Of a stretch of 64,000 bases of DNA, positions 1-29,978 are shown in pieces. A model generated the notes under the pieces. It worked only from the letters and a program-made list of their open reading frames with translations. It ran no database searches and was not told the DNA's origin. Origin of the DNA: Polymyxa betae A26-41 (lineage: Eukaryota > Protista > Endomyxa: Phytomyxea). Position 1 is the first letter of the stretch. Every line of letters starts with the position of its first letter. The translations under genes were made by a program, and so were the position numbers. The stretch covers positions 1 through 64,000 of the forward strand of contig RBZT01000500.1 of assembly GCA_003693705.1 (NCBI GenBank), given 5' to 3'.

Positions 1-102
1 GAAGGGGCTGCTGAGGTGGGCTCGGCAGATGGCTCTTCAGAAGGTTCTTCAGAAGGGGCTGCTGAGGTGGGCTCGGCAGATGGCTCTTCAGAAGGCTCTT
101 CA
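1..102. repeat. 51-bp coding tandem repeat (17-aa unit of the mucin stalk)
   Basis: gaaggggctgctgaggtgggctcggcagatggctcttcagaagg.tcttca at 1 and 52. Confidence 0.9.
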
Positions 103-725
103 GATGGGACAGTAGTGGGGTCAGCAGTTGGCTCGTCGGTTTCAGGAGCAGGTGTTTTGCGAGAACGGGTGGTTGTCTTTCTGGGTAGTGTTGTCAAGAT
201 TGTTGTCACATTGCACCAGGTAACATTGCTCAGATTGGAGGCATTGCTGCCATTGAACGGCATCGTGCAATTAGTGACATTGCTGATGTTGAGCTTGCTG
301 GTGTAAAGGGGTTTGAATGGGACCACGACTTTCCGGCATTTACAGTATTTAGCAGGGCAATCAGGCGGGAGGTTGTTGCTAATGGTCGGTTAACGTTCCT
401 CTTTATACACAGATAGTACATATTTACTAACCAGGTAGCGTCACACCAGTAGTCTGTGGCAATGGCGTTCCTAGCTTTGCATACTAATCTTTCTCCAGGA
501 GCATTTTGGCATGCGCAAAAGGATTTCGGACCTGAAATGTTGAATTTAGGCATGTATTTGAACGATTCCAGTATGCATACAGAAAGATGGATTGCTGTTA
601 CAGTTCTCATCGCAAAACTGATCGGTGGTGCGGACATCAATAGCCTTGCAAAGTTTACGAGCATGAACTTGAGAGCAGAGAGCTAGAACGCAGAGCGCAA
701 ACAAGATGTTTGATGTGAACGACAT
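1..725 (-). CDS. Secreted Cys-rich protein with two Cys repeats and a Pro/Ser/Glu/Thr mucin-like stalk (3' end runs off window)
   Basis: ATG at 725, signal peptide MSFTSNILFALCVLALCSQVHA. Two repeats of C-K-A-x5-TD-x-[FW]-C-D-x2-C...CP...C-x-C across two short introns, then EEPSAEPTSAAP repeats. Confidence 0.75.
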
Positions 726-1137
726 GATTCGAAATGATGTCCAGTATGACGACATGATCGGTTTAAATAGCGCCGCCTGGAACAGGGTGCCGGTCATTGC
801 CGACATGTGCATCACTTGCCACTGTAATGTGCACATCGTCACAGATTGAACATCCCGAATCACGTTCCTTTACGCGGAATGAACTACATCTGACTGCATC
901 AAGAGCAGAGGTAGTTTCTGAGGCTTGAACAACGCCTACTGTGTATAGTAAAGAGCATGACTTTGTCCATGCCTACCATGATACGTGCGATGCAAGTTCG
1001 GCAATTCTGGGACCATTCGGACATGAAAAGTTTTATGAACTTTACCTCGTTTTTGAAAAAGGTTGTTGAGTCAACTGTTAGTTTCACCCAATGACTAGAC
1101 TGGCACCAATGAAAAATCAGAGCTTAATAATCACGAA

Positions 1138-2030
1138 ATGCGATGTCGTGCTCGAACCACGATGTTGCTATTAATCCTAATATATTTAATATCGCCGACA
1201 TATTCATTCAGCAAACACCGAAATCAGGGCATGAAACATAGACAACATCACGGCAATCATGATGATCAGCATAAACCTAGCTGGATGGACGATTACAACT
1301 ATGATGACGAAGAGTTCGGCATGAACTTTGGTGATTGGGGTCACGATTTTGGCCACGAAGATAAAGGCCATCACCTGGATGACTTGGAGATGTTGGGAGA
1401 CCACCATCATGACGTGGAGGTTGACGAAGACTGGCATGATAATGAAGAGCATCATGAACATGAGGACGAAGATTATGATCATGGACGTGAAGAAGAACAT
1501 GACGTTCCAGGCCATCATTTTACTGGATTCCGTCATGGTCATCATGGAGATGCTCATCATAGTGATGATGACCACCACGCCGGTGCAAAGGGCCACGAAG
1601 CAACTCGATCATGGGAAGATGATCACAACGATGAATTCCATCGGGACGATGGTGTAGATGAGATCGAGGGTAAAGTCAAGGACCGTAGTACTGTCCAGAC
1701 TTCAGCTAATATCAATGCCCAAGTCAGTTGCCCAATCTTCGATGTAAGAATCGTAGCTAACTGCCGCTTGCCTAGGTCACTGGAAACGACCTACATTCTG
1801 AAAGTCACCACGATTCGCAGAATCACGAAAACGAGCATCATTCTAGTCTGGAATACGACCGCGATGACGAGACGATGGAAGAGGATGGCTATAAACGTCT
1901 GTCAAGCTATGGGGACGACGACGAAGAAATGCACGATGACGATCGTAAAGAGCATGGCGGTGATCATGGTGACAAAGATGATCACCACCATCATCATAGA
2001 CACCATCGTAGCCACCACCATGACGATTGA
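1138..2030 (+). CDS. His/Asp/Glu-rich secreted protein (family member 1), 2 exons
   Basis: Hydrophobic signal LLLILIYLISPTYS. Intron 1723-1775 (GTCAG...CTAAC...CCTAG) restores a His/Asp-rich frame ending DDHHHHHRHHRSHHHDD* (TGA 2028-2030). Confidence 0.85.
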
Positions 2031-2119
2031 CCGGCGTAGAAGTCATCTATATTCCAATCCTAAACTTAATAAATTAAATGGACAGAGTGTTCCATCGGAA
2101 ATTATGAGCAAGATTTCGT

Positions 2120-3290
2120 TACAGCCTGGTTGTATCAATTTCAAATGACAGAGCGCAGCCATCTCTAGAATGAATGATCTCATCGTCTTTCGCTCCACAA
2201 TTTGGAAACTCTTCTTGTTCAGTTCTACTGCCTCGGTCTGTTGCATGATGATACAAGGTGGCCTAATGCCCTGTATCACTGCTGTTTCCCTATCATGGGT
2301 TGCTCAATGATTGCACGAATCGTTTCCAGCTGTGGTGTCCTCGCCGATATAACCGAGTACCCCATACCACTGGATTCAGATTCTGGTAAAAACCGGGCAG
2401 CGCATAGAATTGGGTTATTCACCGCTCCCCGAAGCGCTCTAAGCTGTTCCAAGTGCAGAATCTCTCGTAATCTTTTAGCAATGCGGACGAATTCATACTA
2501 AATGAAATAGAAACCTCATTTTACAAGGACGGCGTCTGTGTTGGGGATGCGGCACCAGTGATGGTAATATCGTTTCGGGCGTGTATTGAACCATAAACAT
2601 AAGGTGTATTGAGATTCACTGAAGGCCGACTACGTCCATGAGAACGAACGGATCCCGAGATATAGGGATGATTTGTAATAAACAAAGAGAAAGTTCCAAT
2701 TTCAGTTTCGAGCCCAGCTGCACGCCAAATCCAGCAACTGATGCGGAAACTCCATCCATTGACCCACCTAATCCAGCAACCTTGGCCTCGGCGTTGCAAA
2801 ATTCGACATTGGCGAATGCATGTACGCCTGATAAACCCGCTTGTTATTTCGCCCGATCCTTGCCCTAAACCCTCAATCCGAAATTGTACATCAGCCAAAT
2901 GCCCTAAACTGACGATTTGGATAGTCTGAATAGCTCCAGGTATGGGATTCCGCTGTTTATTGTACCGATCGCACGGCTCCAATCCAAATCACAGCCTTTT
3001 TAGAGCGGGAAATCCCAATTCTAGATCAGTGAAACCCCAATTCTGAAGCGCTGCGCACGTTACGGTTATCTTACTGCATATTTCCTCTCCATACCAAACT
3101 GTGCAGTTGTGAAATAATCTGAGTGTCAGCCAGATAGTCTCCCATTTGTTTGGCCTCGCAGCCAGATGCTGCGAAGAGGGCTCCCTAATGGTTTCACACG
3201 TAGTCACAGGGTGCCATTGCAACCAATCAAAGCAGATTTCACCTACAGCATCCTCTGCATCGCTATGTCGTGAATTGTTATTCCCATCGT
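2120..3290 (-). CDS. Probable multi-exon hypothetical gene
   Basis: Several minus-strand open segments bounded by GT/AG-like sites (e.g. YEFVRIAKRLREILHLEQLRALRG). No recognisable domain; exon structure unresolved. Confidence 0.3.
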
Positions 3291-3291
3291 C

Positions 3292-6200
3292 ATGGTTAGT
3301 GATTCGATTCTGTCATCGACATCGACCCGGCCAACTTCCATACGAAGAAGGCGAAGAAAATCGATTGCTCGCTTGTTTGGGGCTCTGGTCGTCCCGGCAA
3401 ATGAAGCACAGCGAGCGAATCGCCTTCGCGATGGTTGCATCATTCCGCTGGACCTGGATCGTGTTCGACCAGATTGCTTATTGCCAGCAGAAATCGCATC
3501 GTTATATGCAGAGGCTGATAATCCTAAAGGCTCGGATGCGCTGCTCACGTCTGCAGGAAGGCTCTCCAAAGCCACCATTTATGTTCGGCTTAATTTCGTT
3601 AGGATTGCTGTTTATGAAAATCAATCCGTAGAGATTGAGATAGGCATATTCGATCAAAGTGTTGAACGATTCATCACCGATAGCATTGTTCTAGGCTCAA
3701 GTGGCAATTCTCTTTCTGATTGGGTTGGGTTCGTCGACGTGCAGATCTCTTCATCCTGTGTTATTGTAGCTCGTATCTATGCCATTGGCGGTTTGGTTAA
3801 GAATTGTTCGTCCATTCGCGACTGTCGTCGGCAAATAGGGTTCTCTTCTTTCCCCTTGTCTCACGTATTTTCTGAGGCCCCTTTGACACAACATGATCTG
3901 GCTGTATTGAGACCCAAATCAGATCAATCATTTGCCAAATTGCTCACATCATCATCTGCTGGAACTCGTTTTAGACCTTCGATGGCGTTCAAGCTGCGTT
4001 TTCAGATGGCCAATGTGATTCCATTAGGAACTCCTTATCATTGCTCATCGGGCTTATCAACTAATGGTCATCTCGAATCCTCTTCGTTGATTCGTTTCGA
4101 GCTGATTTGCGGGGAATTTAAAAACTCGTTTAAGTCGTCTCAGATGAATATCTGCATTGAGGCGTCTATTATCATTCGTGGGACCACTAAGGAATTGGCC
4201 TGTTTGAGGCGTGGCTCCGAAGGACTCTCTGTCAAATACACGTCTGCAATCGTTTATCATTGCAATTCACCTGAATTTCATGAGAGTTTTCTGTAAGCAT
4301 TCTACAGCTTTCTGGCAATGAGCTAATTCCGAATAGGGTCAATGTCAGTGCAATCCGTAATGAGGCTCAGAATTCGCATGTCTCCCTTCTGCTTCGCGCT
4401 CTTCATGTTGCCAGATATGGCACCGTAACTACTATGGGCTACATCACTTTAGTGGTTTTCGACCGAGAGTCTGGGAAGATCGCCACAACCAATAATCATA
4501 TTGTTGCCGTCCATTTACTTGACATTGCCAACAACAAGAAAACAAAGAACCGAATAATGTTCAGATCATCGGTCTCTTTTTTTGAATTTCTCAATCAATT
4601 CATAAAACGTGTCAGTAGGTTGTGTCCAAACATGAGACAGATGACGATATCTTGGCGACTGTACTAAGCGGCAAGGCATTGTATAAGGACTTGAAGCTAG
4701 CGCATACTCGTATCGAGCACACTTCAAATTTGGATGTTCTGCTACAAACAAAGCTGATGGAACACTATATTCTGAAAGGGTCACTTCAACATTATTGATT
4801 CCTGCTATTTTATTGATGAGTGTTTCAGAGCACATCGGCAAGACGCTACTTTGAATGCAGCTTGGTCACTATATTGCTTATTGAGAAAGAGAATTCTTAA
4901 CAGAGGTGGATTCTCTTTTGAGCCGATTCAAGCCGACATCTTGCTCACCAACTTGATGTTGTGTTTTCGGTTGAATTTGCCCGATCTGGTTCAGTTATCC
5001 TTAGAGATCTTCCATGGTGGGTGAAAACGTCTTGCTGAGTTTCACAAGCTTGTACTAAGCTGATATCTAGACCCGTCACTTGTTGTCATGTCAGATTGTT
5101 CAAAGAGTCTCGTTGAATCCGTCATCGTAGAAGCTGGCAGAGGTTCAGTCAGGTTGTGAGTCTCGGGATTCTCTACTGACAAATATTGCCAACAGGTTCA
5201 TGTGCTCTGACTGGGAAAAGTCTTGTTTTGCTGTTTAAACTGTTTGCCCCGGTTGTTGCTCCAGATCAGCTTCGCACTGTTTTCGACCGCCTGAGTGTTA
5301 AGCTGAATATTTACGACGCCGAAAGGTTTCTTCGAACCAAACTGGCCGAAATCTTTCATCCAGACCCGAAGATCGATCGCAAGTGCTTGATCTCTCTAGC
5401 AGCTGATTTTGCCTCATCATCTGATGGTTTGTAGTATTCTTGCTGGGCTCGCTCTTGAAGTTTGACTTCCTCATAGACAGGTGTTGCTATTTAGCCCGGC
5501 CTTTATCTATTGTGTTGCAAGCAAAGTTCTCTGAAGACAATGTTCCGAGTTTACTCTCATTGCTTCACCGACTTTATACCATACTCCACGTGCTATCAGT
5601 GGACAAGTCTCTGAGCGCTATTCAAATTCCGACCATGCAGATTTTGAGAGTTCTACATTCCAGTAGATTTGTTATCCCACCTGACGAAGTGGAGATTCAC
5701 CTAGATTATGCGTCAAGAATTTCGAATGGCTCAGCGTTGTAAGTGTATGCTGATTGATGTGTTTATGTATTGATCAAGCTCAGTAATCACTCACACATTG
5801 TTCTTCGAATTATGGAGCTACACGCAGCCATTTTGATATTGGATATGATTCCAGCGATGCCTGATGTCAATCTTTCGGTTTCTCGAACCTTGCTGATGTT
5901 GTTAAATGGGAAGGATATGCAATTACAAGGGTAAACGAAATGCCTTGCAAAATACGTTCCAGCTCAGAATAATGTTAGAATCCGAAAACGTCGATCTGCG
6001 TATGTCTCCCTTCACGTTATCCAGTGGCTTCGGCCCTGGATGTTAAAGATTCTGATGCGGCACTCTGCTACTTCTCCAGACCTAATGACTTTTGAGCTAT
6101 TAATTCACTTCATGATACGCTCAAGCTCCGATCTTGGCGGAACACAAAATTTGCTAGAAAAATGGCGAACTGTAGTCAAAAGCGGTCTATATGAGAACTC

Positions 6201-7926
6201 GGTCTGCAATGAAGTATTCATCATATTGCAAGAAAGGTTTGCTCAGAGTGCGGTTGAATGAAGCTCGGCTAAATTCCATTTAGACGTCTATATTCTTGTG
6301 CCATCGAGTTTTTCAAACATATAAGAGGATCATGGGAAAGTGAAAGCTTTCTGGTTTTTTTTACTCATTTAAGTGAAGCAGAGTTAGCTTTTTTAGAAGG
6401 AAATACTGACAGAAAGATTGACGCGTTGGTCTCTGGTCTCAACGCTGTCAGGCACATAAGCGAAGCATTGCAAATCCGCATGTATATCGTCGACGAGCTA
6501 ATTGGTCAGTACGATTCCATGCAACTTGCCGGTCCAGAACTAGCTCAGGTGCGAAGTATGATTTCGTCAGACAACTCGCACTAAACACTGTTCAGTGTTA
6601 TTTAGAACGTGGTGAAAATCAGCCCTCGACAGATATTGGTCGTCTTGGTGATTTTCGAAACGCGCTACAAATTTCAACCGATTGTTTCGAATGGGGTGTG
6701 CGCATTTTTGTGCAACGCTTTTACATACTGACTTCGAATAGAAAAAGCTGCAATGATCTGCGAAAGGATAATATATGGGTGTACGGGGCCAGATAAGGAT
6801 CCCAGCTTCGTTCCACATTTCAGAAGAATACGTGCCGATCTTCTTCGTCGCATTCAGACTGAAGATCGAGTAATGCCCCAGTACGCTCGAGTTGCTTTCA
6901 GCGACTGCAGCTTTCATCACACTTCCGGTAATTAGAGCCTTTTTACTTTGGAGTATTTAACATGTAGATAGAACGTGGGAGAGAATTTGTGTACCGTTTA
7001 AGAACTGGAGAGAGCGTTCTTGAGTTCACAGATCGGTTTCGTTTGCAGTATCCGTATGCTGAGATCAGAAATACATATGTCGACCCAGCCGAGGTCCAAG
7101 ATAATCCTGTCATAGCGATTCAAAGAGTTGAAGTTTCCAGTGGTTGTCAAAATGAAGAGAGCGGTACTGATGTCGACGCCGATTCGCTGAGTTTGCCTGT
7201 TCGATTCCGTCATTTCGCAATGCATTCAGATGCTAGTGCATTTTCGTTTGCTAGAATGGTGATTATTCCGTCCACGAGAGCGGAAGAGGATCTCAGTCCA
7301 GATACCGATAGTATGTTTTCTGACGTTTTGTGACTAATAATATGTTTCTGATTTCGCGTTCAGTTTGCCGTCAATGGTTTAAAATCCATTGCATCAAAGT
7401 TGCGAACAAATTCCCTTGCCTTTCTCGACGTCAACTTATCCTTAGCCATAAACATTACTGGCAAAGTCCCATCCAAACTGCCATTATAACTGTGAGGCAG
7501 GGCACCCAAAAATTAAAGCGTGAAATGGAGAAAATAATTTTTGCTGCTAAACAAAAGGACGGCAATATCGACGTCAGTCAGCTGTCATTGGTGTTATCCG
7601 GTTCGTTATTACTTTTTTTCAACCTCAAACTAATGCTGTCTAAAAGGTATTATTGACGCCCCTGTCAATGGCGGCATTGCAATCTACCGATCTTGTTTCT
7701 TGCCCAATTCTGAGAGATATACAGACGAACAAGAAGAACTATTGAGTGCTATCAGAAATCAAAGAAGCGTTCTAAAGAAAGGATTGACTTTATTCAAGGA
7801 TTCAATATCGCCTGCACTCTTGCCATTACACGCGGTATGAAATCCATCAAAATACTGTTTCTCATCTGACATAATCCCACTTAGCATCTAGAGAATCAAT
7901 TGCAGAAGACTTTTCCAGAGTCATAA
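3292..7926 (+). CDS. DOCK-family Rho/Rac guanine nucleotide exchange factor (DHR-1 C2 + DHR-2)
   Basis: DHR-1-like ELICGEFK...YTSAIVYHCNSPEFHE. DHR-2-like PQYARVAF, FVYR..ESVLEFTDRFRLQYP, KFPCLSRRQ, SPIQTAI, LSLVLSGIIDAPVNGGIAIYRSCFL. Last exon HLENQLQKTFPES*. Confidence 0.85.
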
Positions 7927-8208
7927 ATATACCTTACACCAATCTTGAGGACATTTGTTGAAAACAGATATATTTATACAGAGACCTTCAGTTAGGCAAT
8001 TTCACTTGCTTCATTGTGGACTAATTTCGGAACAACATCTCTTGTGACTCACGAGTTTCGGTATTCTGGTATTCGGAACTTCAAGAATGATTGAATCACG
8101 AAACCATTGGATTTCCGATGGTGGCAATAGTTCCGTCATCTGAATGCTGACATCATTTCACTTTCAAAATCCAACCAGAGTTCGAACAATATCCCATTCA
8201 CTGGAAAA

Positions 8209-8547
8209 ATGCGATCTGTGGCCATCCTTGGTGTGCTTTTGATTAGTTTGATTTCCCTCGCCTCATCTTATGAAGAAGACGCCATGCGGGAATCGAATCT
8301 GAATGAACACGATGAAGGCCATCGGGCGGGAAAGGAACATGAGGTTGAAGTGGATATCTCAGTTCAAGACCACACTCCGAGTCATGGGCATCACGCTCGT
8401 CATCATCCAGGGCACCATCACCTGGCTGAGGATGAAGATGATGAATACGGCGATGTTCATGGCCATGGCCATAATCCCCATGAGTTGTCTCACAATGAAA
8501 TGGTCGATATGCTACACGGCGACGATGACGACGACTTCTTGCATTGA
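8209..8547 (+). CDS. Small His/Asp-rich secreted protein (family member 2)
   Basis: Single exon, signal peptide MRSVAILGVLLISLISLASS, mature part dominated by H/D/E. Confidence 0.85.
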   Translation: MRSVAILGVLLISLISLASSYEEDAMRESNLNEHDEGHRAGKEHEVEVDISVQDHTPSHGHHARHHPGHHHLAEDEDDEYGDVHGHGHNPHELSHNEMVDMLHGDDDDDFLH

Positions 8548-8864
8548 GTTGCTGTTTCTGTTTGAATCATCCAATATCCTGTATTGACTTTCGAATCAAA
8601 AGAATCGATTCCAGCAAATAAAGTTTGGCCATTTCGTCATAGCAATTTGAACTGACTCATTTTTTCACTTCATGTATGCATGGTTGGGGGCTCTCTCTTC
8701 AACATAAGGTACGTCTGATGCATTTTTGTCAGACTTTATAGAAGGTACCGGAATGTCACGGGGACAGGTCGGAGCGCACAGGTTGCCAAAGCCGGTTATT
8801 AACTGGAATATCCATAGTTGAATTCCAATTAGCACGTAGCTATTGAGCTGACTCTTTCTTTTTG

Positions 8865-9889
8865 ATGGAGCTCGATCATGAATCGCTCCTGAACGCCGAC
8901 CAAGGGCATGCCTTGGTCGTTCTAAACAACTTCCGCCGGGAATTGTCGCATAATGATGCACTGTTGATAGAATTATGGAAGAGAGCATCGTTCGTAGTGG
9001 TCGCTGATGGCGCCGCAACGTACACATCAAAATTATATGAAATTGGCATGTAGGTCTTTACAAATCCTTTTTGACAGCCTGCTTATATCTCTTAGATCGG
9101 CGCCAAATGCAGTCTGTGGTGACTTTGATTCTGTAGAAGAGGCAACATTAAATGATCATCTGGATCGTGGCTCTGCCATAATCCGTTTAGATTCGCAAAA
9201 TCATACAGATCTGCAAAAGTGATGTTGAACCATTTAAAAAAAGAAACCTTAATTTCTCTGGCAGATGCGTCCATATTGTCGCTTGCAACCAACTAGGAAT
9301 TCACACCCAGAAGCAAGACGATATTTTATCGCTTGGTATGCGGTTTCGCACAGGACAATGACAATCATCAACCATAATGCAGAACTTACCGATGAGTTAC
9401 AATTGGACGTTATCGTGTTCGGGGCTTTCGGAGGACGATTTGATCACGAGATGAGCGCAATACATGAGCTGTATCGATCCCAGCATTGGTTTCGATCGAT
9501 AACTTTGCTTTCTAATTGCAATCTAGCTTGCTTGATTAGACCAGGGAGAACTGTGATTGTAGGATCAGGTTCGTTTTCAAATTTCAAAGCTGAGTAAGTC
9601 CACAGAAATGTCACAAACAATTACAGCTTGGCAGCACCTGTGGATTGCTGCCGCTGGGTTCGCCAGTGACTTCAATCTCGACAAAAGGTCGCCAGATTTA
9701 GAAACCCATCCTAGCTGACCGCTCATAGGTTTGAAATGGGATATTTTGAAGCGCAGTCTGAAGCTAGGAACCTTCGTCTCAACTAGCAATCGCATCATCT
9801 CCGATACAATAGAGATCGAATGCTCCGAACCCGTCATTTTGACAACATCGTTGACATCACAGCAATACCAACGTTCTATATTTACATAA
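8865..9889 (+). CDS. TPK1: Thiamine pyrophosphokinase
   Basis: Motifs VVADGAA, GDFDS, QNHTDLQK, GAFGGRFDHEM, CGLLPLG, TKGLKWD, VSTSN across ~6 exons. Confidence 0.92.
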
Positions 9890-10118
9890 ACCTGATAAAC
9901 TCTTTTATCGGCGGCGCGGGTAACATCCCCGGGCAAATCTGAATGCCGAATCGTGCTGGGATGTTCCAGACTGAGGATCGAGACAGATCCAGAGGATTCA
10001 TAAAGAAGAGAGGAAACAATAATGAGGATTAGCAAAGGTTCTCTATTAGTGTAGGAGGACAGGACTCACAGAGGAGGCTCCGTTCTCAGTCAAGCCTTGT
10101 TACATTCACTTTCCATTC

Positions 10119-12025
10119 ATGTTCAAAGGCTTGGTCGTTATCTTCATATCTGTCGCATTCGTCAGCGCCCATTCCGACGACGACCTTCTGCAAAGGGCTG
10201 ATGCGTTCTGTAACGCTGGTAACTGCCAAGAGGCGCTGAAGCTGCTAGGAACCGCACATGAGTCTAAGGCCAGTTTCAAGGCGGCTGGGGCAATAGCTGA
10301 ACTGTATCAAACTGGAAAGTTAAATGGAGAATCATCGCATACTGGTGCAGATTATGAGACAGCTCGGGCTTGGCTCGAAAAAGGAGCCGCTTTAGGCGAT
10401 CCCGATTGTCATCGCTCTCTCGGCTTCTTGCATGCTACAGGCATAGGATTGAATGGAACTGTAGATATGGCACAAAGTTTGTTGCAGTATTTTATGGGAG
10501 GACAAAACGGTTTATGTATGGAATGCTCAATGGCTGTGGGCTATCGCTATTTGTATGGCTATGGCGTGCAGAAAAGCTGTGATTCAGCCGTTAAATTCTA
10601 TATAGAGGCTTCAAGCGAAGGTATGAGATTCGTCGAGAGTTATGGTGCTTTTAAAATATAAATCTGATTTTCCTTAGCAATATCGAAAATTGAGACTACT
10701 AGTCCTTTCGAGAGGATTCGCCTAACAGACGAAAGTAACCGGAACAAGCCTGCAGAAGAGTCAAAAGTACTTTTGCTTTCTCCCGCCGAATTGTCCAATT
10801 AATAATCTTTCAGGACGTCATACATTATTTTGAAAATGCAGCAGATGGTGGAGATGTCGCTGCTCAATTAGCACTTGGTCAGCTCACTCAGCGTGGTCTT
10901 CGAGGCGTCCCTCAAGATATGGCGCGAGCCGCTGAGTACTTTGAACGGGCAGCGCAGCAAGGTGACGCTAACGCCATGGCTCAGCTGGCGACCGTATACG
11001 TTAACGGAGAAGGCAGACCGCAAAATAACCAGACCGCTTTGAAGCTGTTCAAAAAGTCGGCAGCTTTAGGCAATGCGGCTGGGTATACAGGCCTCGGATA
11101 CATGTACATGACGGGGAGAGGTGTGGAAAAGAATATGCAGCTGGCATTAAAATATTATAAGGAAGGCGCCGATCTCGGAGCCCCTGAAGCCCAGTATGAA
11201 CTAGCTTTGATGTATCTCGATGGAGAGCACGTAGAGCGGTCGTACGCGACAGCTCTGCATTATTTCACCCAAGCTGCCCATCAAGGTCATACTCCTTCGC
11301 TCTTCAATCTGGCCCAGCTTCATTTGATGGGAATGGGTACTATTAAGTCGTGCTCCTTGGCTGTTAGACTTCATAAAGTGGTCGCTGAGAGAGGACCTTG
11401 GGCAGCTTCTAGGCATAATCAAGGACACGAAGACTTCGTAAACGGGAATTATGAAGGTGCATTATGGTCATACAGTCAATGTGCGATGGCAGGCGATGAG
11501 ATATGCCAGTTAAATGCTGCATGGATGCTTTCCCAAGCTATAGGGTATTATCGCAGTGATCATGAGAGATTGGCGGTTGCTTTTTGGAGAATGGCAGCAG
11601 ACCAAGGTTCTGCTTACGCTCAAAGAATCCTGGGCGACCTATCGTTCTCTGGTATTATATCTGGTGGCCCTGAAGAAGCTATGAGAAGATATCAGCAGGC
11701 GGCTGATAGATCCGACCCCCAAGCTTTATTCAATCTAGGCTATATGCACGAATGGGGCCCCGCACAGGATCTGTATCTTGCTAAGCGAGCATACGATCAA
11801 TGCAAACAAGCGAGTCCTTTGGCCGCCGTCCCTGTGCAGTTGGCGCTTTTGGTTCTTTCCATCCACATGTGGTGGGTGGGTCTGCCCGATTCCTCAGAGC
11901 AGGCCAGGACGGCTCCTAAATGGCGAATCGATCTCGAATCGGCAGAGAACATTATCCTTGTTGTATTATGTGCAGCGCTGGCTCTGGTTGTGTACATTCG
12001 CCAACGCCGGATTGTACGTTCCTAG
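10119..12025 (+). CDS. SEL1L: SEL1L/Hrd3-like ERAD adaptor (signal peptide, Sel1 repeats, C-terminal TM)
   Basis: Many Sel1 repeats (LGYMYMTGRGV, A..YY..AA..G), VAERGPW motif, QALFNLGYMHEWG, LAKRAYD, C-terminal TM. Two introns near 10622-10813. Confidence 0.88.
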
Positions 12026-12329
12026 GAAGTTGTTCAAGACGACATTCTGAAGATCAGAAGTCTCTCACTATGTACATTCTAAGCCAGCAAACATAAACCT
12101 AACACACTATTTTATTGTATACGTAGATCGGGTCCATTGTGAATCTCCAAGTAGATCATTTCGAACAAGTCCCGAGCTTCCGGGAATTTCGGCGTGAATC
12201 AAATGTCCTTCATGAGTCATGTTGTTCATCGATGACTCAAGATAGCCTCCAGGTTGACATCAATCAGGTCGGAGAGCTGCCATTATCCTATTTTCGCATA
12301 ATTGACGAACCCCGATTTTTAGCTCACCG

Positions 12330-13034
12330 ATGTCCCGTCCGATTGCTATAATCCTATTGCTTGCCATATCTTTTGTCTTAGCCGACCACAGTGGTCAGGT
12401 TCTTGATAGAGACGATGCAGATGCCGTTCGCGGTACAAAGCACCTCGATTCTCGTGACTCGGAGCAAATCGCGCACCACGATGGCAAAAACCTTGATAAC
12501 AAGGGAACTGATAAGTCCAATACGAACACCCAGGCTGTATTAACAGCTACGATGAACGCCAAAGATCAGCATCAAGATTCGTATTCGCATCTGCACGATA
12601 ACGCACACGAAACTGATGCTGCCGGAGAAGGTGACCACCTGCAAGGAAATGAGGCCTTCGTTGGAATGCACAACGGCGCCGACAGCTTCGGCCATATTGA
12701 TAGCGCCCATTACGAGCATGATCACCGCGACGTAAGTCTCAGGATCTTTAGTTTCATCTTTCTAAATGCTAGACAGGAGGACCCTATGTTCCATGGACAT
12801 CATGGAATGTTTGATGGCGATGGCGTATATAACTTCGATGAAGAGCACATGCATGATTTCGGTGTGGATCCAGCTTACGCTCATGGCTTCGGTGACCCTG
12901 ATTTCCACCACTGGCGTCATGGCAATGATCACCGCATGTTGGACGCATGGGGCCGTCCCCGTGTAGATGATTATCAATACCCTGGTGCTGTAGCTTTCGA
13001 TAACGCGCATCACCGAGGTGCCCATCATCTGTAA
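12330..13034 (+). CDS. His/Asp-rich secreted protein (family member 3)
   Basis: Signal peptide; core KGTDKSNTNTQAVLTATMNAKDQHQDSYSHLHDNAHETD; probable in-frame intron starting 12732 (GTAAGT...CAG). Confidence 0.85.
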   Translation: MSRPIAIILLLAISFVLADHSGQVLDRDDADAVRGTKHLDSRDSEQIAHHDGKNLDNKGTDKSNTNTQAVLTATMNAKDQHQDSYSHLHDNAHETDAAGEGDHLQGNEAFVGMHNGADSFGHIDSAHYEHDHRDVSLRIFSFIFLNARQEDPMFHGHHGMFDGDGVYNFDEEHMHDFGVDPAYAHGFGDPDFHHWRHGNDHRMLDAWGRPRVDDYQYPGAVAFDNAHHRGAHHL

Positions 13035-13397
13035 GCAACAAGCCTATAACTCGCTCGAAAGCTAATAAAAACAGCAATCCATTATGACAATCAACCCGTT
13101 TTGTCAGTTTCCTTCAATTCAAGCTATAGCGAAGTTGTATCTGGGTGCCAGCGAAGTCACACATAGCAGTTCATAACTGCTGTACGACCATCACTTAAAT
13201 TCACGTATGTATGATATCAATCAAACTTTTATCTCGGCAGCAATCGAACATCCGATTGCAATTTCCTGACCACGATTGTCCAGCAGGAAGAACTTTACTC
13301 GAAATGCATGAGTCAACGCGCGTATTTTTGTTCAGCTATGAGTCAATGTTTGCGATATTTATGACTCATAATCTATTGTTGCTTCGTAACCCACCGA

Positions 13398-14234
13398 ATG
13401 TTGCATATTATCATGGTAAAGGCGACCTGGTCGCCATCGGTGGTTCTCCTATTCACTTCTATCCTATTATTATGCAACGTTAATGGCGACTCGAATTTAT
13501 CGCTGAACCACGAAGGCCTGGAATCAGCCGAAGGCGCGAAACATTTGGATCTACATGACAAGGCAGATGTTGCGATGCATGGAGTCAACACTCTGGCAAA
13601 CAAAGGAAAAGATAAATCCACAACTACGACGCAGGCTGTCTTAACAGCAACTATGAACGCCAAAGATAAGCATCAAGATTCATATTCGCATCTGCACGAT
13701 AATGCTCATGAAACCGATTTTGGAGCCGACCATGACGTGCTATTGGGAAACGAAGCCATAGCAGGGCATGAAAACGATGATGAAGGTGTAGACTACATCG
13801 ATCCTGAGCATTATGTGTATCATGAGTATCCACATGAAGATCACACACATGGTTATGATGGATATCCAGGAGAATACATCTACAGCGATGGTCACCCTGG
13901 TCACGTCCTTCACAGCCCAATGGTACATGCTGGAATTCATGGGTCAGTACATCCTTCTGTTCATGACCACCATACCCAAGGGCTTCATCACCAACATTTC
14001 GTTGATGGTGGGTTCGTGCCAACTATGCACCATGACAACATGCACTTCGTTCCCGATCACGGTTTTGGTGCTCCCGACCATGACTTTCATCATGGTGCGG
14101 TGCCTCATAGCGCTCATGCCAGGCGGCGATACTTTGTCAGGCCAGCCCAGACTAACGAAGTTGCCTTCGTTCCGCATTCTGATTTCAACGATGGCCACGA
14201 TATACCTTGGGTTGCAGCTGGCGATTTCCACTAA
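13398..14234 (+). CDS. His-rich secreted protein (family member 4, tandem paralog of member 3)
   Basis: Signal peptide (likely ATG near 13413); near-identical core KGKDKSTTTTQAVLTATMNAKDKHQDSYSHLHDNAHETD; His/Gly/Pro-rich tail. Confidence 0.85.
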   Translation: MLHIIMVKATWSPSVVLLFTSILLLCNVNGDSNLSLNHEGLESAEGAKHLDLHDKADVAMHGVNTLANKGKDKSTTTTQAVLTATMNAKDKHQDSYSHLHDNAHETDFGADHDVLLGNEAIAGHENDDEGVDYIDPEHYVYHEYPHEDHTHGYDGYPGEYIYSDGHPGHVLHSPMVHAGIHGSVHPSVHDHHTQGLHHQHFVDGGFVPTMHHDNMHFVPDHGFGAPDHDFHHGAVPHSAHARRRYFVRPAQTNEVAFVPHSDFNDGHDIPWVAAGDFH

Positions 14235-14320
14235 TATTCTGTCACGGTCGCCTTTAATAAATTCGATTCCACATTTAATTCGCTTCGAACATTGTCGAGC
14301 TAGCATCTATGCATAGTGGG

Positions 14321-14846
14321 CTAATTCTTGAAATCGGAATTAGGCTGGGAATCAAATTCGAATTGATTCGCCAAACTGTCAAGATGTCTTTGAGCACAAC
14401 AATGGAGAAGCGATTCAAACGATTGCGAATCACCAGGAGATTCGGCCACTTTAGCAAACGCGTTTGAGCATTGGCCATTGCTAGAATAGTCTCTAATCAA
14501 AGAATCAATGGCTTTCTCACTTGTGCTGTTTGCACATTCCGATGCAATAATCTGGGCATTTTGGCAATCTTCATCATTAGCACGGTCAGCAGCAGCACAT
14601 TTCTCCAGCAATCTAATTTGTTGATGGCAATTTTGTACGATTTTTGCACTAAGAGCTAAGCCAATCTCGCTTTCTATCTTAGACCATCAGACACAGAAAG
14701 CTCAGAAAATTCCGGATACCTTTCTTTTGCTTCATGGTAGGGACAGTGTCTAGCAGCATGAAAGCTCGCCTCTCCAGGATCTCTTGAATATATTCGCTTA
14801 CATGCGACGGCTGCGACGACGGCTGCGACGACGCCTCCATAGTCAT
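14321..14846 (-). CDS. Small twin-CX9C-motif protein
   Basis: Spliced product ...KQKKALSAKIVQN-CHQQIRLLEKC-x10-CQNAQIIASEC... contains two CX9C motifs. Confidence 0.6.
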
Positions 14847-15269
14847 GACGGTAACTGAAATGCCGAAGGCGCATAGCGCGTCTTCAGTCCGCTCATGTCT
14901 CAACAACCATAGAAACGATTATGTCTCGATAGATTAGATAGCTGTTAATTCTTCAAGCAGAGAATGACATGGCACTGCTAAGTGGCACGGGTGTGGAACG
15001 AAACCCCTATGGATGAAGCCCAGCCAGCAGTGCAAACGATGACTTACAATAATGGACTGAAACAGTCAATTGGGCAGCCAGCGGCCTCACACACGACCAG
15101 TGGCGGTTTCAACTGAAGACAACCCCCCCCCCCCCATCAGTATGCTAAATGAGAGAGCCCATCTATCGCTCCATTTAGTGGCGATTCGTTACGGAGTTGA
15201 GCGTCATTGCACATTTGAGAGGGTCTTCGTGAGACCTCGTTCGCGGGCGCATTCCAGGCTCACGGCGAC

Positions 15270-18200
15270 GATGCCGCGACGAACTGGCCCTCATGCAGCG
15301 TCGGCGAATGTCAGCATAGCTCGCGTTTGCCAGGCCGTGCTTCAGCGCTCCCAAAACGTTCCAATGTAGTCAGCCCAGTAGCTCATCCGTGTTTTGTCAT
15401 ACTGACACTAGATCAGATGCGAGGATGTAGATAAACGCTATATTATCTATGACTATTTATGCTCTGTACGGTATCGACTGCTACGAATTTTGATGATTAT
15501 CCAATGGGTATCCCGGTCGAAAGCGCCGCTGGAGCAGCTGACGATTCTGAATGACTACATCGATGAGAAAAATCGCATATACCGTAGATATGCTCATCGA
15601 TTATGCATTCAGGCAGCACAGATTGAACAGAATTTGTATTTCAATTTACTGCTTTGGGAAGCGTGATCTTATTACAATGGCAGATACCCAGCTTGGGATG
15701 TTGAGACGGCCATGCATCTGCTTTGCCATGGACGGTATCCCTGGTTCTCTGTTAAGTCTGTAAGTTGGCCTGATGTGATTCTCCCAAGGCGTAACATAAC
15801 ACAAGCACGATGTCGTAGAGACGGTCGCCATCGAGGCGCGAATTGCTGTCACGAATGGATGCTTTGATACATCGGGAGCTCGCTTGCAACCGTCTCTCTA
15901 GAGAATTATGCTTGGCAGAGCGAAAGTTAGCTGACGGTCGGCTGAAGTTCAGGGTTGGTGATGATTTCACCATGACGTTGACTCTGAGGATTCATAACGA
16001 AAAGTTGGTGATGACTCTGCAGATTAAGTGGACCCTTGCTAATATTTTGGGTAGAAGGTTGCATAGTTTGTACTGGTACGTTTTGGATTTGCATTATAAA
16101 GACAAGCCAAGGAATACGGCACTGGAACAAGATTGCAATCGACTGCTTTTTGAGCACACCTCGCCAGAAACTGCTTTAACGTCCTTGCTGTCTCATCTGC
16201 GCCATCATTCCGATAGAGAACGCTTCAAAATTCTTCAACAGGTAATGCATTTCCCAACACCAAATACTATCGGAACCGATTTCTTCAGGACGCTGCCCCT
16301 CTTTCTGATAAACATGCTTATATCAACGTTAAAGTAGTGCCTGGCAATTCGGTATTGGAAATCCATTATTGGCAGCTGGAGAAGAGCTTTCTTCCTGTGA
16401 AAGGGCACATCACTAAGTTCAGCTCGTGCGTTATTGCTTGCTCTCAGTCTGATTGATTGTTTGATCAGTGACGAAAAGGCGCAGCCGAACAGTGCTGTCA
16501 TCAGGATCTCATCAGATCCTCCAGCAGTGCTGCACATTCCATATTTTGTTGGGGCCACCGCTAGTATCTCGCTTTCACAGCCGCTCTCTGAAATTGTTCG
16601 GACCATCATAGAGCGTCGAATGATTTACAGAATTAACGAGCTTTCCTTATTACTGCAGTCATCCTCTGCTGAAATGATCTGCTGGGATCAGCTTATTGTA
16701 CTGGACAAGGTTTTGCGTATCTTCGTATTTGCCCCTGGCAAAACGGTATACTGATACATGTGACTTTGATCAAGTTGTTGTGCTAAGAGGTTTGGCTAGG
16801 TCACATTCCCGGATGGGTTCCTTGTAGAAATTTCCGTAAATCATGAGTCTGGAGCCTTCCAGCTCACATCGCCGTATGCTTACAGGAGTCCATTCTGGCA
16901 TCGACTGTTAAACAAGTTGACAATGCATTTGAATTCCTCGATATCAAAGATGCACCAGGTTCTATTGGCAGTTTGTATGAACGCTCTTATTGAGCATTTC
17001 GCTTTGCTTGCCTCGTAAGAAATCGGGAGTTTGGAATACGGTTTATTTATTTTACCTTAGGATTTCCGGATTTGACGCTTTAAGAAAATGTCCCACTGCT
17101 GATTTGCACTCATTGTGTGTACGAATCCCGAGGTTCTCCTCTCAAGGTCTTTTTATAGAGCTTGGGCAGCATGAGGTGGAGTTCAGACTCTGCTCCGATA
17201 TTCATGGCGCCAGATCGCCAGAGACTATCGAACAACTCAGCTTGCATTCTTTGTTTGCTTTGGACTCGAACATTGCCTATAGGTACTGCTCCTGTTGATC
17301 TTGTTTGGCTTATATCCTGAATGGTATCGGCTTTCTAGGCGAAGCAAATCTCATTCGGCATCGGACAAAGAAAACCCGCTTTTTTATCAGTATTTGAGCG
17401 ATATTTCCCAGATCACTCCTGTTATGTTTAGTAGTATAGTCCAGTCTTGTCAAAATCGAATCATTTTACGATATCTATTGAGAAATATGTGTGTAATCAA
17501 TCTATCTTTATTTGCAACAATTCATCTTTGTGTATAGTGAACCGACTCAATATGTATTCTGCAAAAGCAGCCTGATCTGCTGGAAACTCGATAAGTACCG
17601 TGATATGAACAGTCCCTCTCCGCTCTATGTGTTATTGTCTGTTCGAGACGGGGATCTCTGGACAGCAAAATTCGACTGTTCAGGGTTGAAAGGTTACTAT
17701 ACATCAGCTCTTCCTTACTTCAATGAAACTCCAGGTAACTGGATCGGGCCAACATCTTTGTTGACTGATTTCCAGCAGGATTCTCTGTCAATCCTAATCG
17801 GAAACACATGGAGATTTCGTATCCTATTGAAAATCTTCTTTCGCTTCAGTCCAGTGCTCTTGCCCAATGTCGAACCGATATACTGACTTTTCTACAAATG
17901 GCCCATCTCGTTTCGCAGTTCTTATCGCTCAAAGCTCTTGCTGGTAATACTTTTGTTGTTGTTCTATGCACGATTCTGAAAACCCTGAAGATGATGAAAA
18001 GTTCAAAGCATTTCAGCATTTCCAGTTAGCAGCTTTGTTCCATAAAAAGGCGTACTTTAAACTGCCGACTGGTCTAACATTAGTCATTGCAACATATGTT
18101 GTTAATGACAATTTCTACTATTCTCTCCAATTCTTGCCTAGAGCACTTCCTCATCGGTTTGGATAGTCAAATCGCCGAAAAATGTCCCAAACTAAACACG

Positions 18201-19480
18201 GTTGCAGGCAATATTTGGAGCATTTGCTGAATGCTAATGCAGATGGTCTTTTGCAGCTCTTTACTGTGCTGTATGAGTCGGAGGAACTCGTCAATGCAAC
18301 AATCGACTTTGTATGGGTATATTCTTTGGAATTTAACTCTTATATCGTTGCATTTTAGGTTCAATCGGTGGACGTCATTGACTACATCTCTCCAGATATT
18401 GACGTCGTACCGGAATCTCCAAACTGGTTACGGGTTGTATTTCGGAGTGGGAAACTCTCTGTCCATTCCTGGGTTGACCTTATTTATCTCCCCGGTTCGA
18501 TATATCGCTGCAATTAAATGGTTTCTAAACGATCTGTAGACAAAAGTGTTCGTGTGGAAACGGTGCCCCGGTCAGAAGAACCAATACGCTGCAGAGATCG
18601 ACAGCAACTGTTACAAGTTCTTTCGGATTGGAAAGCAAAATGTTTTAGGTTCGTTTGCGTTCTCTGCATCGTACTTTTGCCTTATCTTTTTAGTTTTGCT
18701 GAATACACTGGCGTACACGAGTTACTGAGAAGGAAAGAGAGTAACAACGATATGTCTCAGTGGTGTGATAACGGAGTGGAATTCAAGATCAGTGAAGAGG
18801 TAATTGGGCATCGTGCAGTTGAGTTCATAGATTCTTACAAGTTGCACGTTCAGGGTCGATCCTTTATAGGAATCGGCATTCCTAATCCTGAATATAGCAC
18901 CGTTCAGCAATACGCTGCTGTATTTGCAGTTGGAAGTAGGCTGACTGGTTTAGCGAGGATTTGTTATTCGCCTTCTGTTAGCTTTCAGCAATCCATATCA
19001 ATTTTCAGGTAAATTTATCGAGTTTTGGAATCGTGATCGTTAATCCTGATGCAGGGCAATTCAACTACAGTCGCCCCAGTTGCTTAAATGTGAATTGATG
19101 CTTCAGTGTAAGTTACCTTGGGCATATTCACACGCAACTCAAGTGCTTGCACTTTGTATCGCTTTTGGTGACACGGTTAGTTTCCTATTCACTGGGGTTT
19201 TAGCTGAATCATGCATCATAGGAAACAGGAACGTGTGTATTACGGTTGCAGATGGCCATGAACACCCATACTATTTCTCTATACGGGAAAGACTCGGATA
19301 CCATTCTGCTGAATCAGTATTTGGAAGACTGGGATAAGTCTTCATTTGGATCTGCAATCCTTCTGCTTAGGAGAAGGTCTCTAATAGAATTAGCAATGCT
19401 TAGAAATAAATGACTCAACAATTATCGCTTATTTGCTTGGATTCAGGATGTAGCAACATGTACAATGAGAGGACGCTAAA
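15270..19480 (+). CDS. MED14: Mediator subunit 14-like (Rgr1), many exons; ends approximate
   Basis: N-terminal DKRYIIYDYLCSVRYRLLRILMIIQW and KLADGRLKFRVGDDFTMTLTL resemble the Med14 N-domain. Continuous chain of short-intron exons to ~19480. Confidence 0.65.
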
Positions 19481-19560
19481 ATTCTTATAACGAAAATCCA
19501 ATCTTGGTATTTATCATATTCGCAACGTGTTTGAGAAGGCATAACTTATGTCAGCGGTCA

Positions 19561-19633
19561 TCGCCTGTAGGTCAGAGGTTAGACTGCCGTCCTTCTAAGT
19601 CGGAGGTCGGGGGTTCAAATCCCCCCAGGCGAG
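19561..19633 (+). tRNA. tRNA-Arg (anticodon UCU), intronless
   Basis: Acceptor TCGCCTG/CAGGCGA; anticodon loop CT-TCT-AA (19594-19596); T-arm GGGGG-TTCAAAT-CCCCC; 73 nt. Confidence 0.92.
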
Positions 19634-19642
19634 TTTTTTTTT
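19634..19642 (+). terminator. RNA polymerase III terminator (T-run)
   Basis: T9 run immediately after the tRNA discriminator base. Confidence 0.8.
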
Positions 19643-19828
19643 GCATTGTAATAAGTACCAAATTTGTTGATTCACGTTGAAGTTCCGGTTCAAACGGAAG
19701 ATAGTATCGGAATATGGCACTGGAAGTCCGTGACGGGGAATTATCCGCTTCGCCTCGGATCCAGTCTGCTCTGATTCCAGACTCAACATTGAGACCAAGC
19801 TGTGAAATTATTCTACCCGACACCCAAG

Positions 19829-21042
<1,214 letters not shown>

Positions 21043-29101: not shown

Positions 29102-29213
29102 TTGAGGCGTTGTTCGCAATAGCATTAAAGCAATATTGGGTTTGCGTACGCGTCATTATGGCCCTGATTGAATTCTAGCCACATTCACCATTGAACCAGG
29201 TATTCGGTCAATA

Positions 29214-29978
29214 ATGCCCCATACGGGTTACCAGATCTATAGCGCGATTCTTGTCGCAATGTCTCTTGTTTTCATCAGCGGTCTCCTTTTGATCATTATA
29301 ACAGATGCCTACCAGCCTGGGCTCGATGCCTCGTCTCTCTACCGTGATCGCTACAGAAAAGGAGACGATACCGTGGAACGATATGTCGCTTCATCATTCA
29401 ACGACTCGGTGAATACTCGAGAATTTAACGGGACGCGAGAATACGGCGGCGCGGTTGCCACAGCCGACCTAGCGAACGACGTTGCCGTCGGACAACTAGA
29501 TGCCTCTCGATCGGCTGACGAGGAACGCGACTTCTACGCGAATACGAGAAGATACGAGGCCTATCTCGAAGCGAATCGATTTCATCACAATCTTGACACG
29601 GGCGATGTTCTAGAGCGCAACGACAACTTCTTGGGCCCTGATCGCGCAAAACAGCGCCGTGTTCTCGTCGAACGTCGCCATAACGACGTACTTGAGCACG
29701 ATGACGCTCTCCGACAACAAAACAAGACAACGTCGGAATTTGGGTCGAGTAGAGAAAGATTTAGGGCGGCGCGGGTCGATGAAACAAGACAATCACGAGC
29801 GGCGATCGCTCCCGATGCTGCTTCTGGAATCGATCGTGCCACAAGAGACGCAGCTGTCGATGAGGCAATGATTAATACGAGAACGAGGTTCAATTACTCT
29901 GAATTGGAACGAGGGACCGGTCAGGCGTGGGCCGACCGACTGCACTATAATGTCGATGAATCTGATGTTATCCTGTAA
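29214..29978 (+). CDS. Intronless secreted or N-anchored Arg/Asp/Glu-rich protein of unknown function
   Basis: 254-aa ORF, N-terminal hydrophobic segment, Cys-free charged mature region. Confidence 0.75.
   Translation: MPHTGYQIYSAILVAMSLVFISGLLLIIITDAYQPGLDASSLYRDRYRKGDDTVERYVASSFNDSVNTREFNGTREYGGAVATADLANDVAVGQLDASRSADEERDFYANTRRYEAYLEANRFHHNLDTGDVLERNDNFLGPDRAKQRRVLVERRHNDVLEHDDALRQQNKTTSEFGSSRERFRAARVDETRQSRAAIAPDAASGIDRATRDAAVDEAMINTRTRFNYSELERGTGQAWADRLHYNVDESDVIL

What the first reader, a model, noticed from the sequence alone, without database searches (positions are those of the whole stretch)
1138..14234. Cluster of four His/Asp-rich secreted proteins with a shared ~40-aa core
Seen: four signal-peptide proteins (1138, 8209, 12330, 13398), all on the + strand, with Cys-free mature regions, interleaved with housekeeping genes. 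After removing intron 1723-1775, member 1 (DGVDEIEGKVKDRSTVQTSANINAQVTGNDLHSES) aligns without gaps to member 4 (HGVNTLANKGKDKSTTTTQAVLTATMNAKDKHQDS) and closely to member 3. This link is invisible in the ORF track. The core alternates small/hydrophobic and polar residues like a long beta-strand, flanked by His-rich disordered arms. Inference: an undescribed family of self-assembling, metal-crosslinked structural proteins (spore wall, adhesive or penetration apparatus) or metal-scavenging effectors.
Basis: partly seen in the sequence, partly recalled or inferred. Interest (0 to 1): 0.72.

Follow-up and report, generated by a model that had tools for sequence, protein, structure and literature searches.

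The report
Histidine-rich beta-strand proteins of Polymyxa
Three genes of a root-parasitic protist (likely Polymyxa betae) encode histidine-rich proteins with predicted signal peptides that share a new, strictly alternating 37-residue core and appear strongly transcribed; they likely stack into a metal-crosslinked wall or adhesive material, which is untested, and the fourth gene named lacks the core.

Summary
Partly confirmed. Genes at 1138, 12330 and 13398 share a ~37-residue core; the gene at 8209 does not. Both introns are seen as RNA joints. A profile built without member 1 finds its core better than 3000 of 3000 global and 3000 of 3000 local shuffles; member 2 scores at chance. Core conservation alternates residue by residue (p=5e-5), as in one long beta-strand. 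No Pfam, PDB or Atlas match was found. Seven unnamed relatives exist, including a divergent pair (P0006/P0007). In one RNA run, contig depth was 1,083-8,233 for the three genes against about 25-190 for their neighbours (a crude measure). A neighbouring gene's mature length and the gene order match a published Polymyxa betae secretome table. That table's clusters point to syntenic Plasmodiophora relatives and a Spongospora relative, whose sequences I did not see. Best reading (0.45): a pH- and metal-triggered, self-assembling secreted structural protein. Main rival: a metal-scavenging effector (0.25). Assembly, metal binding and location are all untested. A putative Spongospora relative is absent from a resting-spore proteome. 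This is a new orphan family of a known general kind.

The parts
1138..2030 (+). Member 1: 279-aa His/Asp-rich protein with a predicted signal peptide; exons 1138-1722 and 1776-2030; long N-terminal arm (His 20%, Asp+Glu 32%), core late in the chain
1723..1775 (+). 53-nt GT..AG intron that splits the member 1 core
   Evidence: RNA-contig joint 1722/1776 in X1, X2, X3 and X10
1672..1835 (+). Member 1 core (37 aa, spans the intron)
8209..8547 (+). Member 2: 112-aa His/Asp-rich protein with a predicted signal peptide; lacks the core; low contig depth; not part of the family
12330..13034 (+). Member 3: 219-aa protein, exons 12330-12731 and 12777-13034; highest contig depth in 1-20000 among unique genes (8233 in X10)
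12732..12776 (+). 45-nt in-frame GT..AG intron of member 3
12501..12611 (+). Member 3 core (37 aa)
13398..14234 (+). Member 4: intronless, 278 aa (273 aa if the second Met, at 13413, is the start); tandem paralogue of member 3
13602..13712 (+). Member 4 core (37 aa); 86-89% identical to P0001-P0003 while the arms are 45-60% identical
1..725 (-). Head-to-head neighbour of member 1: predicted secreted protein with two 6-Cys modules and a PT mucin-like repeat; similar contig depth; runs off the window
8865..9900 (+). Intervening thiamin pyrophosphokinase-like gene (approximate bounds)
   Evidence: Pfam TPK_catalytic E 2e-6, below the curated cut-off
10119..12025 (+). Intervening Sel1-repeat gene, 600 aa when spliced (Hrd3/SEL1L-like by recall)

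Best explanation
Members 1, 3 and 4 share a strictly alternating 37-residue core between His/Asp-rich arms and are likely abundant secreted structural proteins whose cores would stack as long beta-strands into a fibre or sheet, which histidine-metal links would likely harden into a wall, coat or adhesive of this likely plasmodiophorid parasite. Shown: shared core, period-2 conservation, stronger conservation of the core than of the arms, splicing and transcription. Computed from composition: net charge near zero at pH 5-5.5 and -22 to -50 at pH 7.2. Inferred steps: (1) export through the secretory pathway; (2) condensation in an acidic granule where the chains are nearly neutral; (3) packing of the conserved small-residue face (Thr, Ala, Leu, Ala, Met/Val, Ala) strand against strand; (4) a D-x-H-x-D-x-Y-x-H run on that same face, plus the arms, binding Zn, Cu or Ca once His deprotonates after release; (5) deposition in a spore or cyst wall or at the attachment site.
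For: Period-2 conservation over 28 columns, p 5e-5, and hydropathy alternation in the central 16 columns, p 0.0035; 0% Pro and Cys in the core. Core 86-89% identical against arms 45-60% in 3 of 3 relatives compared; between m3 and m4, 12 synonymous against 4 non-synonymous codon differences in 39 core codons. A divergent relative keeps the same architecture of signal peptide, core and His-rich arm. Charge switch in m1, m3, m4 and P0007. X10 contig depth 8233 (m3), 1825 (m1) and 1083 (m4) against 190 for Sel1 and about 25-53 for other neighbours. All three are covered in 4 of 4 shallower RNA runs where the housekeeping genes are absent or trace, and m1 lay outside the stretch used to pick the runs. 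A Cys-module/mucin-like secreted gene is head to head with m1 at similar depth. His-driven, pH-triggered condensation is established for squid-beak proteins (abstract of PMC6884462). Plasmodiophorid resting spores have chitinous walls (passages of PMC4471660).
Against: No localisation, binding or assembly data. The AlphaFold2 model of P0007 drew the core as a helix at pLDDT about 46-63, and the core-only model had no secondary structure; both are low-confidence. A0A0H5RWI1, clustered with the probable m3/m4 entry, is absent from the S. subterranea sporosorus proteome tables (about 650 proteins, same ID format); a crosslinked wall protein could escape extraction, and its sequence was not seen. 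Its root transcript is 4-fold higher in the resistant cultivar (log2FC 2.0, Padj 0.002), which fits a host-responsive protein as well. Contig depth is a poor measure of expression, and the life stage in these runs is unknown. GHGxY repeats occur in 0 of 6 proteins.
Confidence: 0.45

Rival explanations
1. Soluble metal-scavenging or metal-buffering effectors: the arms would chelate Zn, Cu or Ni at the host interface for nutrition or to blunt metal-dependent defence, and the core would only hold a small oligomer together.
For: His 10-29% and Asp+Glu 13-36% in the arms. Transcribed in root samples. The putative Spongospora relative is up in a resistant host and missing from the spore proteome. 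The probable entries sit in a published candidate-effector table as disordered proteins.
Against: A 30-residue uninterrupted period-2 core under stronger constraint than the chelating arms is not needed for scavenging. The core is conserved, not fast-evolving.
Confidence: 0.25
2. Components of the zoospore penetration apparatus (Rohr, Stachel, adhesorium): long beta-strands would build the dense rod or its sheath, hardened by His-metal links.
For: The apparatus is a mechanical projectile (passages). The family seems confined to this group: only unnamed relatives in 3 sequence searches, and the published cluster holds only plasmodiophorid IDs. His-metal hardening of animal jaws and His/Gly-rich stinging-cell spine proteins are recalled analogues, from no call.
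Against: No stage data. Very high depth in bulk root RNA fits a mass-produced wall or matrix at least as well. The Spongospora transcript did not change on spore germination (log2FC 0.07, Padj 0.77).
Confidence: 0.12
3. Granule-matrix or storage proteins: polyanionic His-rich chains would pack Ca or Zn, or store nitrogen, inside vacuoles and never form an outer structure.
For: Charge near zero at acidic pH; apparent abundance; transcript of the putative relative present in sporosori (base mean 849).
Against: The relative is not in the extractable spore proteome, where a soluble storage protein should be easy to see.
Confidence: 0.1
4. The core is a sorting, processing or receptor-binding motif (possibly helical), and the variable arms are the functional cargo.
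For: The core lies early in m3, m4 and P0007 but late in m1, between unrelated arms. One low-confidence model drew it as a helix.
Against: The moment at 100 degrees is 3.9 against 37.6 at 180 degrees. No RxLR in 6 of 6 proteins.
Confidence: 0.08

Closest known systems
Squid-beak histidine-rich proteins (HBPs)
   Same: Disordered His-rich extracellular-material proteins whose condensation starts with His deprotonation (abstract); a matching pH charge switch is computed here.
   Different: HBPs need GHGLY repeats; none occur here. These proteins are Asp-rich, with only about 9-10% Gly, and carry a unique non-repetitive period-2 core.
Functional amyloids and metal-binding cross-beta peptides (recalled, from no call)
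   Same: Strict i,i+2 alternation, a small-residue face, and His/Asp at alternate positions.
   Different: One uninterrupted strand-like segment of about 30 residues with no repeats or clear turns; fibril formation untested; no sequence match in Pfam or PDB.
Orphan disordered candidate effectors of plasmodiophorids (sequence cluster 167 of PMC12503489: PBTT_08748, A0A0H5RWI1, poly_jg7874, poly_jg7762)
   Same: Probably the same genes: secreted, disordered, pLDDT 44-50, no InterPro row seen for poly_jg7762.
   Different: Listed only as IDs in supplements; I saw no description of the core, its periodicity or its composition. The link from ID to window gene rests on gene order and one neighbour's length.
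Plasmodium HRP2, cnidarian spinalin, Nereis jaw protein Nvjp-1, His-rich oocyst wall proteins (all recalled, from no call)
   Same: Secreted His-rich proteins used for metal or haem binding or for hard structures.
   Different: No sequence link; no tandem AHH array (0-3 scattered AHH per protein); Cys-free mature chains.

Membership tests
The family defined here (period-2 core) | Significant match to the core profile: members 1, 3, 4 | tested here: met
   (m1: 0 of 3000 shuffles in each of two tests; m3 and m4 are in the profile; m3-m4 pairwise 0 of 2000)
The family defined here (period-2 core) | Significant match to the core profile: member 2 (8209) | tested here: not met
Squid-beak HBPs | GHGLY-type repeats | tested here: not met
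   0 in 6 of 6 proteins; feature from the abstract
Squid-beak HBPs | pH-triggered phase separation | not testable with these tools
   only a computed charge switch
Functional amyloid / cross-beta fibre | Period-2 sequence pattern | tested here: met
   p 5e-5
Functional amyloid / cross-beta fibre | Cross-beta fibril formation | not testable with these tools
   monomer models uninformative; multimer tool not available
Small Cys-rich effectors; CBM18 chitin-binding proteins | Disulfide-bonded Cys-rich module | tested here: not met
   no Cys after residue 30; no Pfam hit
RxLR effectors | RxLR motif after the signal peptide (motif recalled) | tested here: not met
   none in residues 21-80 of 6 of 6 proteins
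Plasmodium HRP2-type | Tandem AHH repeats (recalled) | tested here: not met
   0-3 AHH per protein
Secreted proteins of Polymyxa betae (published secretome) | Predicted signal peptide, no transmembrane segment, listed ID | tested here: inconclusive
   poly_jg7759 and poly_jg7762 fit member 2 and member 3 or 4 by gene order only; no listed ID fits member 1
Resting-spore wall protein | Presence in the spore wall fraction | tested here: inconclusive
   putative Spongospora relative absent from an extractable spore proteome; insoluble wall not covered

The most novel reading that the evidence does not exclude
These are the first molecular building blocks of the plasmodiophorid Rohr/Stachel or adhesorium: unusually long single beta-strands that stack into a rod or coat, hardened by a His/Asp metal ladder when the acidic granule is discharged, and conserved as a syntenic gene cluster across plant-parasitic Phytomyxea.
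Probability: 0.12. Interest if true: 0.85.

Novelty: new variant of a known kind. Interest (0 to 1): 0.5.

Why it matters
The papers I read describe the penetration apparatus only by microscopy and name chitin-related enzymes, not structural proteins, for the long-lived resting-spore wall. An apparently abundant family with a defined, conserved 37-residue core gives an antibody target and a peptide that can be tested directly for fibril formation and metal binding. If structural, it would be a convergent protist version of His-metal-hardened biomaterials and a stage marker for a crop-virus vector. If it is an effector, it would be a metal-handling class not described in the passages I read.

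Tried and rejected
No whole genome was held, so paralogues outside the window could not be searched; a six-frame HMM scan of the window found no fourth copy. Pfam: no family for the four proteins and only weak sub-threshold hits for P0007. PDB sequence search gave 6 non-significant hits (best E 0.33); the two alignments shown were to His-tags. Phage tblastn: none. ESM Atlas: no usable hit for the m4 core or for the neighbour's Cys module. Both metagenome-contig scans found no relative. A search with the first-exon core region of m1 gave 3 candidates, none at E<=1. Three raw-read RNA runs laid 0 reads each, which is no test. Both AlphaFold2 monomer models were low-confidence (pLDDT 50.9 and 55.8), so no fold search was run. 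Searches of earlier findings returned nothing. Peptide-motif search of the PMC12503489 supplements found nothing, but the sheets listed hold IDs and not sequences, so this says nothing. The supplement of PMC12903343 was unreadable. Rejected: member 2 as a family member; a 41-nt acceptor for the member 3 intron (frameshift, RNA shows 45 nt); reading the helix in the P0007 model as real.
Full report
OBSERVATION. The four ORFs are at the stated starts on the + strand. Both introns appear as joints in RNA contigs. None of the four has Cys after residue 30. Signal peptides were judged by eye.

WHO SHARES THE CORE. Members 3 and 4 are tandem paralogues over about 110 residues (score 307, 0 of 2000 shuffles). 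Member 1 against them is marginal as a whole protein (p 0.02-0.14), because His/Asp bias lifts the background. Searches with member 4 gave P0001 and P0002 at 61% identity (2 of 107 candidates; cluster members P0003-P0005) and a distant P0006 at 42% (2 hits among 1.84 billion representatives; cluster mate P0007). Member 2 scored 1.5, at chance, and matched the profile only in its signal peptide. The family in this window has three members.

ANATOMY. Across m1, m3, m4, P0002 and P0007 the even positions of the core are conserved (G/V, D, S/T, T/V, T, A, L/I, A, M/V, A/G, D, H, D/E, Y/H, mostly H) and the odd positions vary. The conservation moment over 28 columns is 37.6 at 180 degrees and 3.9 at 100 degrees (p 5e-5), and the core has no Pro or Cys. 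This is the signature of one long beta-strand with one constrained face (inference). The core is 86-89% identical between member 4 and P0001-P0003, against 45-60% for the arms; members 3 and 4 differ by 12 synonymous and 4 non-synonymous codons of 39. Arms are 10-29% His and 13-36% Asp+Glu. Computed net charge is -13 to +5 at pH 5.5 and -22 to -50 at pH 7.2 for m1, m3, m4 and P0007. AlphaFold2 monomers were low-confidence: a helical core in one and no secondary structure in the other.

EXPRESSION. 14 of 24 listed runs hold part of 8000-14400, several labelled root metagenome. In 4 of 4 shallower RNA contig runs from 3 studies, members 1, 3 and 4 and the left neighbour were covered while the genes between were absent or trace; member 1 and the neighbour lay outside the stretch that chose the runs. 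In X10 (kind not on record, but spliced) contig depth was 8233 for m3, 1825 for m1, 1083 for m4, 1363 for the left neighbour, 190 for Sel1, 47 for the contig over member 2 and the TPK-like gene, and about 25-53 elsewhere. The tool warns that contig depth is a poor measure of expression, so this is a hint of 20- to 200-fold excess over most neighbours and not a measurement. Three of three raw-read runs laid no reads. The life stage is unknown.

ORGANISM AND RELATIVES. The window is 46.4% GC with 45-59 nt introns; P. betae is reported at 45.1% and S. subterranea at 45.7% (PMC6328671, part 1 of 2 of the text). The minus-strand barwin-like gene near 31.5-32.8 kb has a mature length of 381 aa, equal to poly_jg7771 in the P. 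betae secretome table of PMC12503489, next to a second barwin-like entry poly_jg7770. The window's second barwin-like gene came out at 280-292 aa against 211 listed, so only one of the two lengths matches. Species is therefore likely, not proven. Counting genes back (uncertain by about one) fits poly_jg7759 to member 2 and poly_jg7762 to member 3 or 4, both listed as secreted and disordered. In that paper's BLAST clusters (E<1e-4, 50% mutual coverage; passage) poly_jg7762 groups with PBTT_08748, A0A0H5RWI1 and poly_jg7874, and poly_jg7759 with PBTT_08752. PBTT_08746-08749 are four consecutive secreted disordered proteins, which suggests a syntenic cluster in P. brassicae. Against this: my own searches returned no named Plasmodiophora or Spongospora protein, so those relatives are either very diverged or grouped by composition; I did not see their sequences.

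WHAT THE SPONGOSPORA DATA ADD. A0A0H5RWI1 has a transcript in sporosori (base mean 849, unchanged on germination; one supplement row of PMC8256667) and in roots (base mean 6371, log2FC 2.0 resistant against susceptible; 2 of 3 places seen in a cut supplement of PMC8471823; passages). It is not in the sporosorus proteome tables of PMC7397026 (supplement searches; about 650 proteins, passages). This weighs against an abundant extractable spore protein, and is neutral for a crosslinked wall or a zoospore structure.

MECHANISM. Best reading (0.45): exported chains condense in an acidic granule, stack through the core into beta fibres or sheets, and are crosslinked by His/Asp-metal bonds after release, giving a wall, coat or adhesive. 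Shown are the core, its periodicity and constraint, splicing and transcription; the charge switch is computed; every later step is inferred. The head-to-head neighbour with two 6-Cys modules and a PT repeat shows similar depth, which fits a surface-building programme; that its modules bind chitin is my recall only, as Pfam, PDB and Atlas gave no hit. Rivals: metal-scavenging effector 0.25, penetration apparatus 0.12, granule or storage protein 0.10, sorting motif 0.08.

COMPARISON AND NOVELTY. It may work like squid-beak His-rich proteins (abstract of PMC6884462) but is not a member: GHGxY is absent. No Pfam, PDB or Atlas match. Paper searches for Polymyxa with histidine-rich and secreted, P. 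betae transcriptome terms, Spongospora resting-spore proteomics with histidine, the three IDs and His-rich wall proteins showed no description of this family in listings or abstracts. Subscription papers on the P. betae genome and transcriptome are not held, and the supplements of bioRxiv 10.1101/2025.11.18.684874 (passages only) and PMC12903343 could not be seen; they may bear on this. Also seen as passages: PMC4471660, PMC5772912, PMC4815078, PMC12883290, PMC12503489.

VERDICT. A real, apparently undescribed three-gene family with an unusual long period-2 core; function inferred. New variant of a known kind; interest 0.5.

Noticed in passing
window 1-725 (-), 5' UTR intron 822-873: Predicted secreted protein with two tandem 6-Cys modules and a PT repeat (Pfam PF04886, E 6e-8), head to head with member 1 and at similar RNA contig depth; the Cys module had no Pfam, PDB or Atlas hit.
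   Followed up: partly
window 8209-8547 (+): Member 2 is unrelated by sequence yet probably conserved in place in P. brassicae (poly_jg7759 clusters with PBTT_08752); it has one short alternating Val/Ile stretch that may be a degenerate strand but is not significant.
   Followed up: partly
window 30126-31107 (+) and about 31565-32830 (-): Convergent pair of predicted secreted barwin/cerato-platanin-like genes with Pro/Thr-rich or Gly/Pro/Gln-rich repeat tails.
   Followed up: partly
window about 14321-14810 (-): Small gene convergent with member 4, intron 14674-14719, with paired Cys spaced 10 apart; it shares one RNA contig with member 4, which suggests overlapping 3' ends; no Pfam hit.
   Followed up: no
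window 2429: An X10 contig running on from member 1 leaves the window sequence here with 255 unmatched letters; possibly a local assembly difference, a splice or a chimera.
   Followed up: no
window 1464 and 1929-1987: Length polymorphisms in the His/Asp arms of member 1 between runs: a 6-nt insertion in X2 and X3, and a 57-nt stretch replaced by 18 nt in X3, both in frame.
   Followed up: no
window 29172-29978 (+): ORF with a hydrophobic N-terminal segment and a long Arg/Asp-rich tail; no Pfam hit.
   Followed up: no
window 58765-60729 (+): ORF pieces that resemble, by recall only, ergothioneine-pathway enzymes (sulfoxide synthase and histidine methyltransferase), another histidine-consuming pathway; not scanned.
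   Followed up: no
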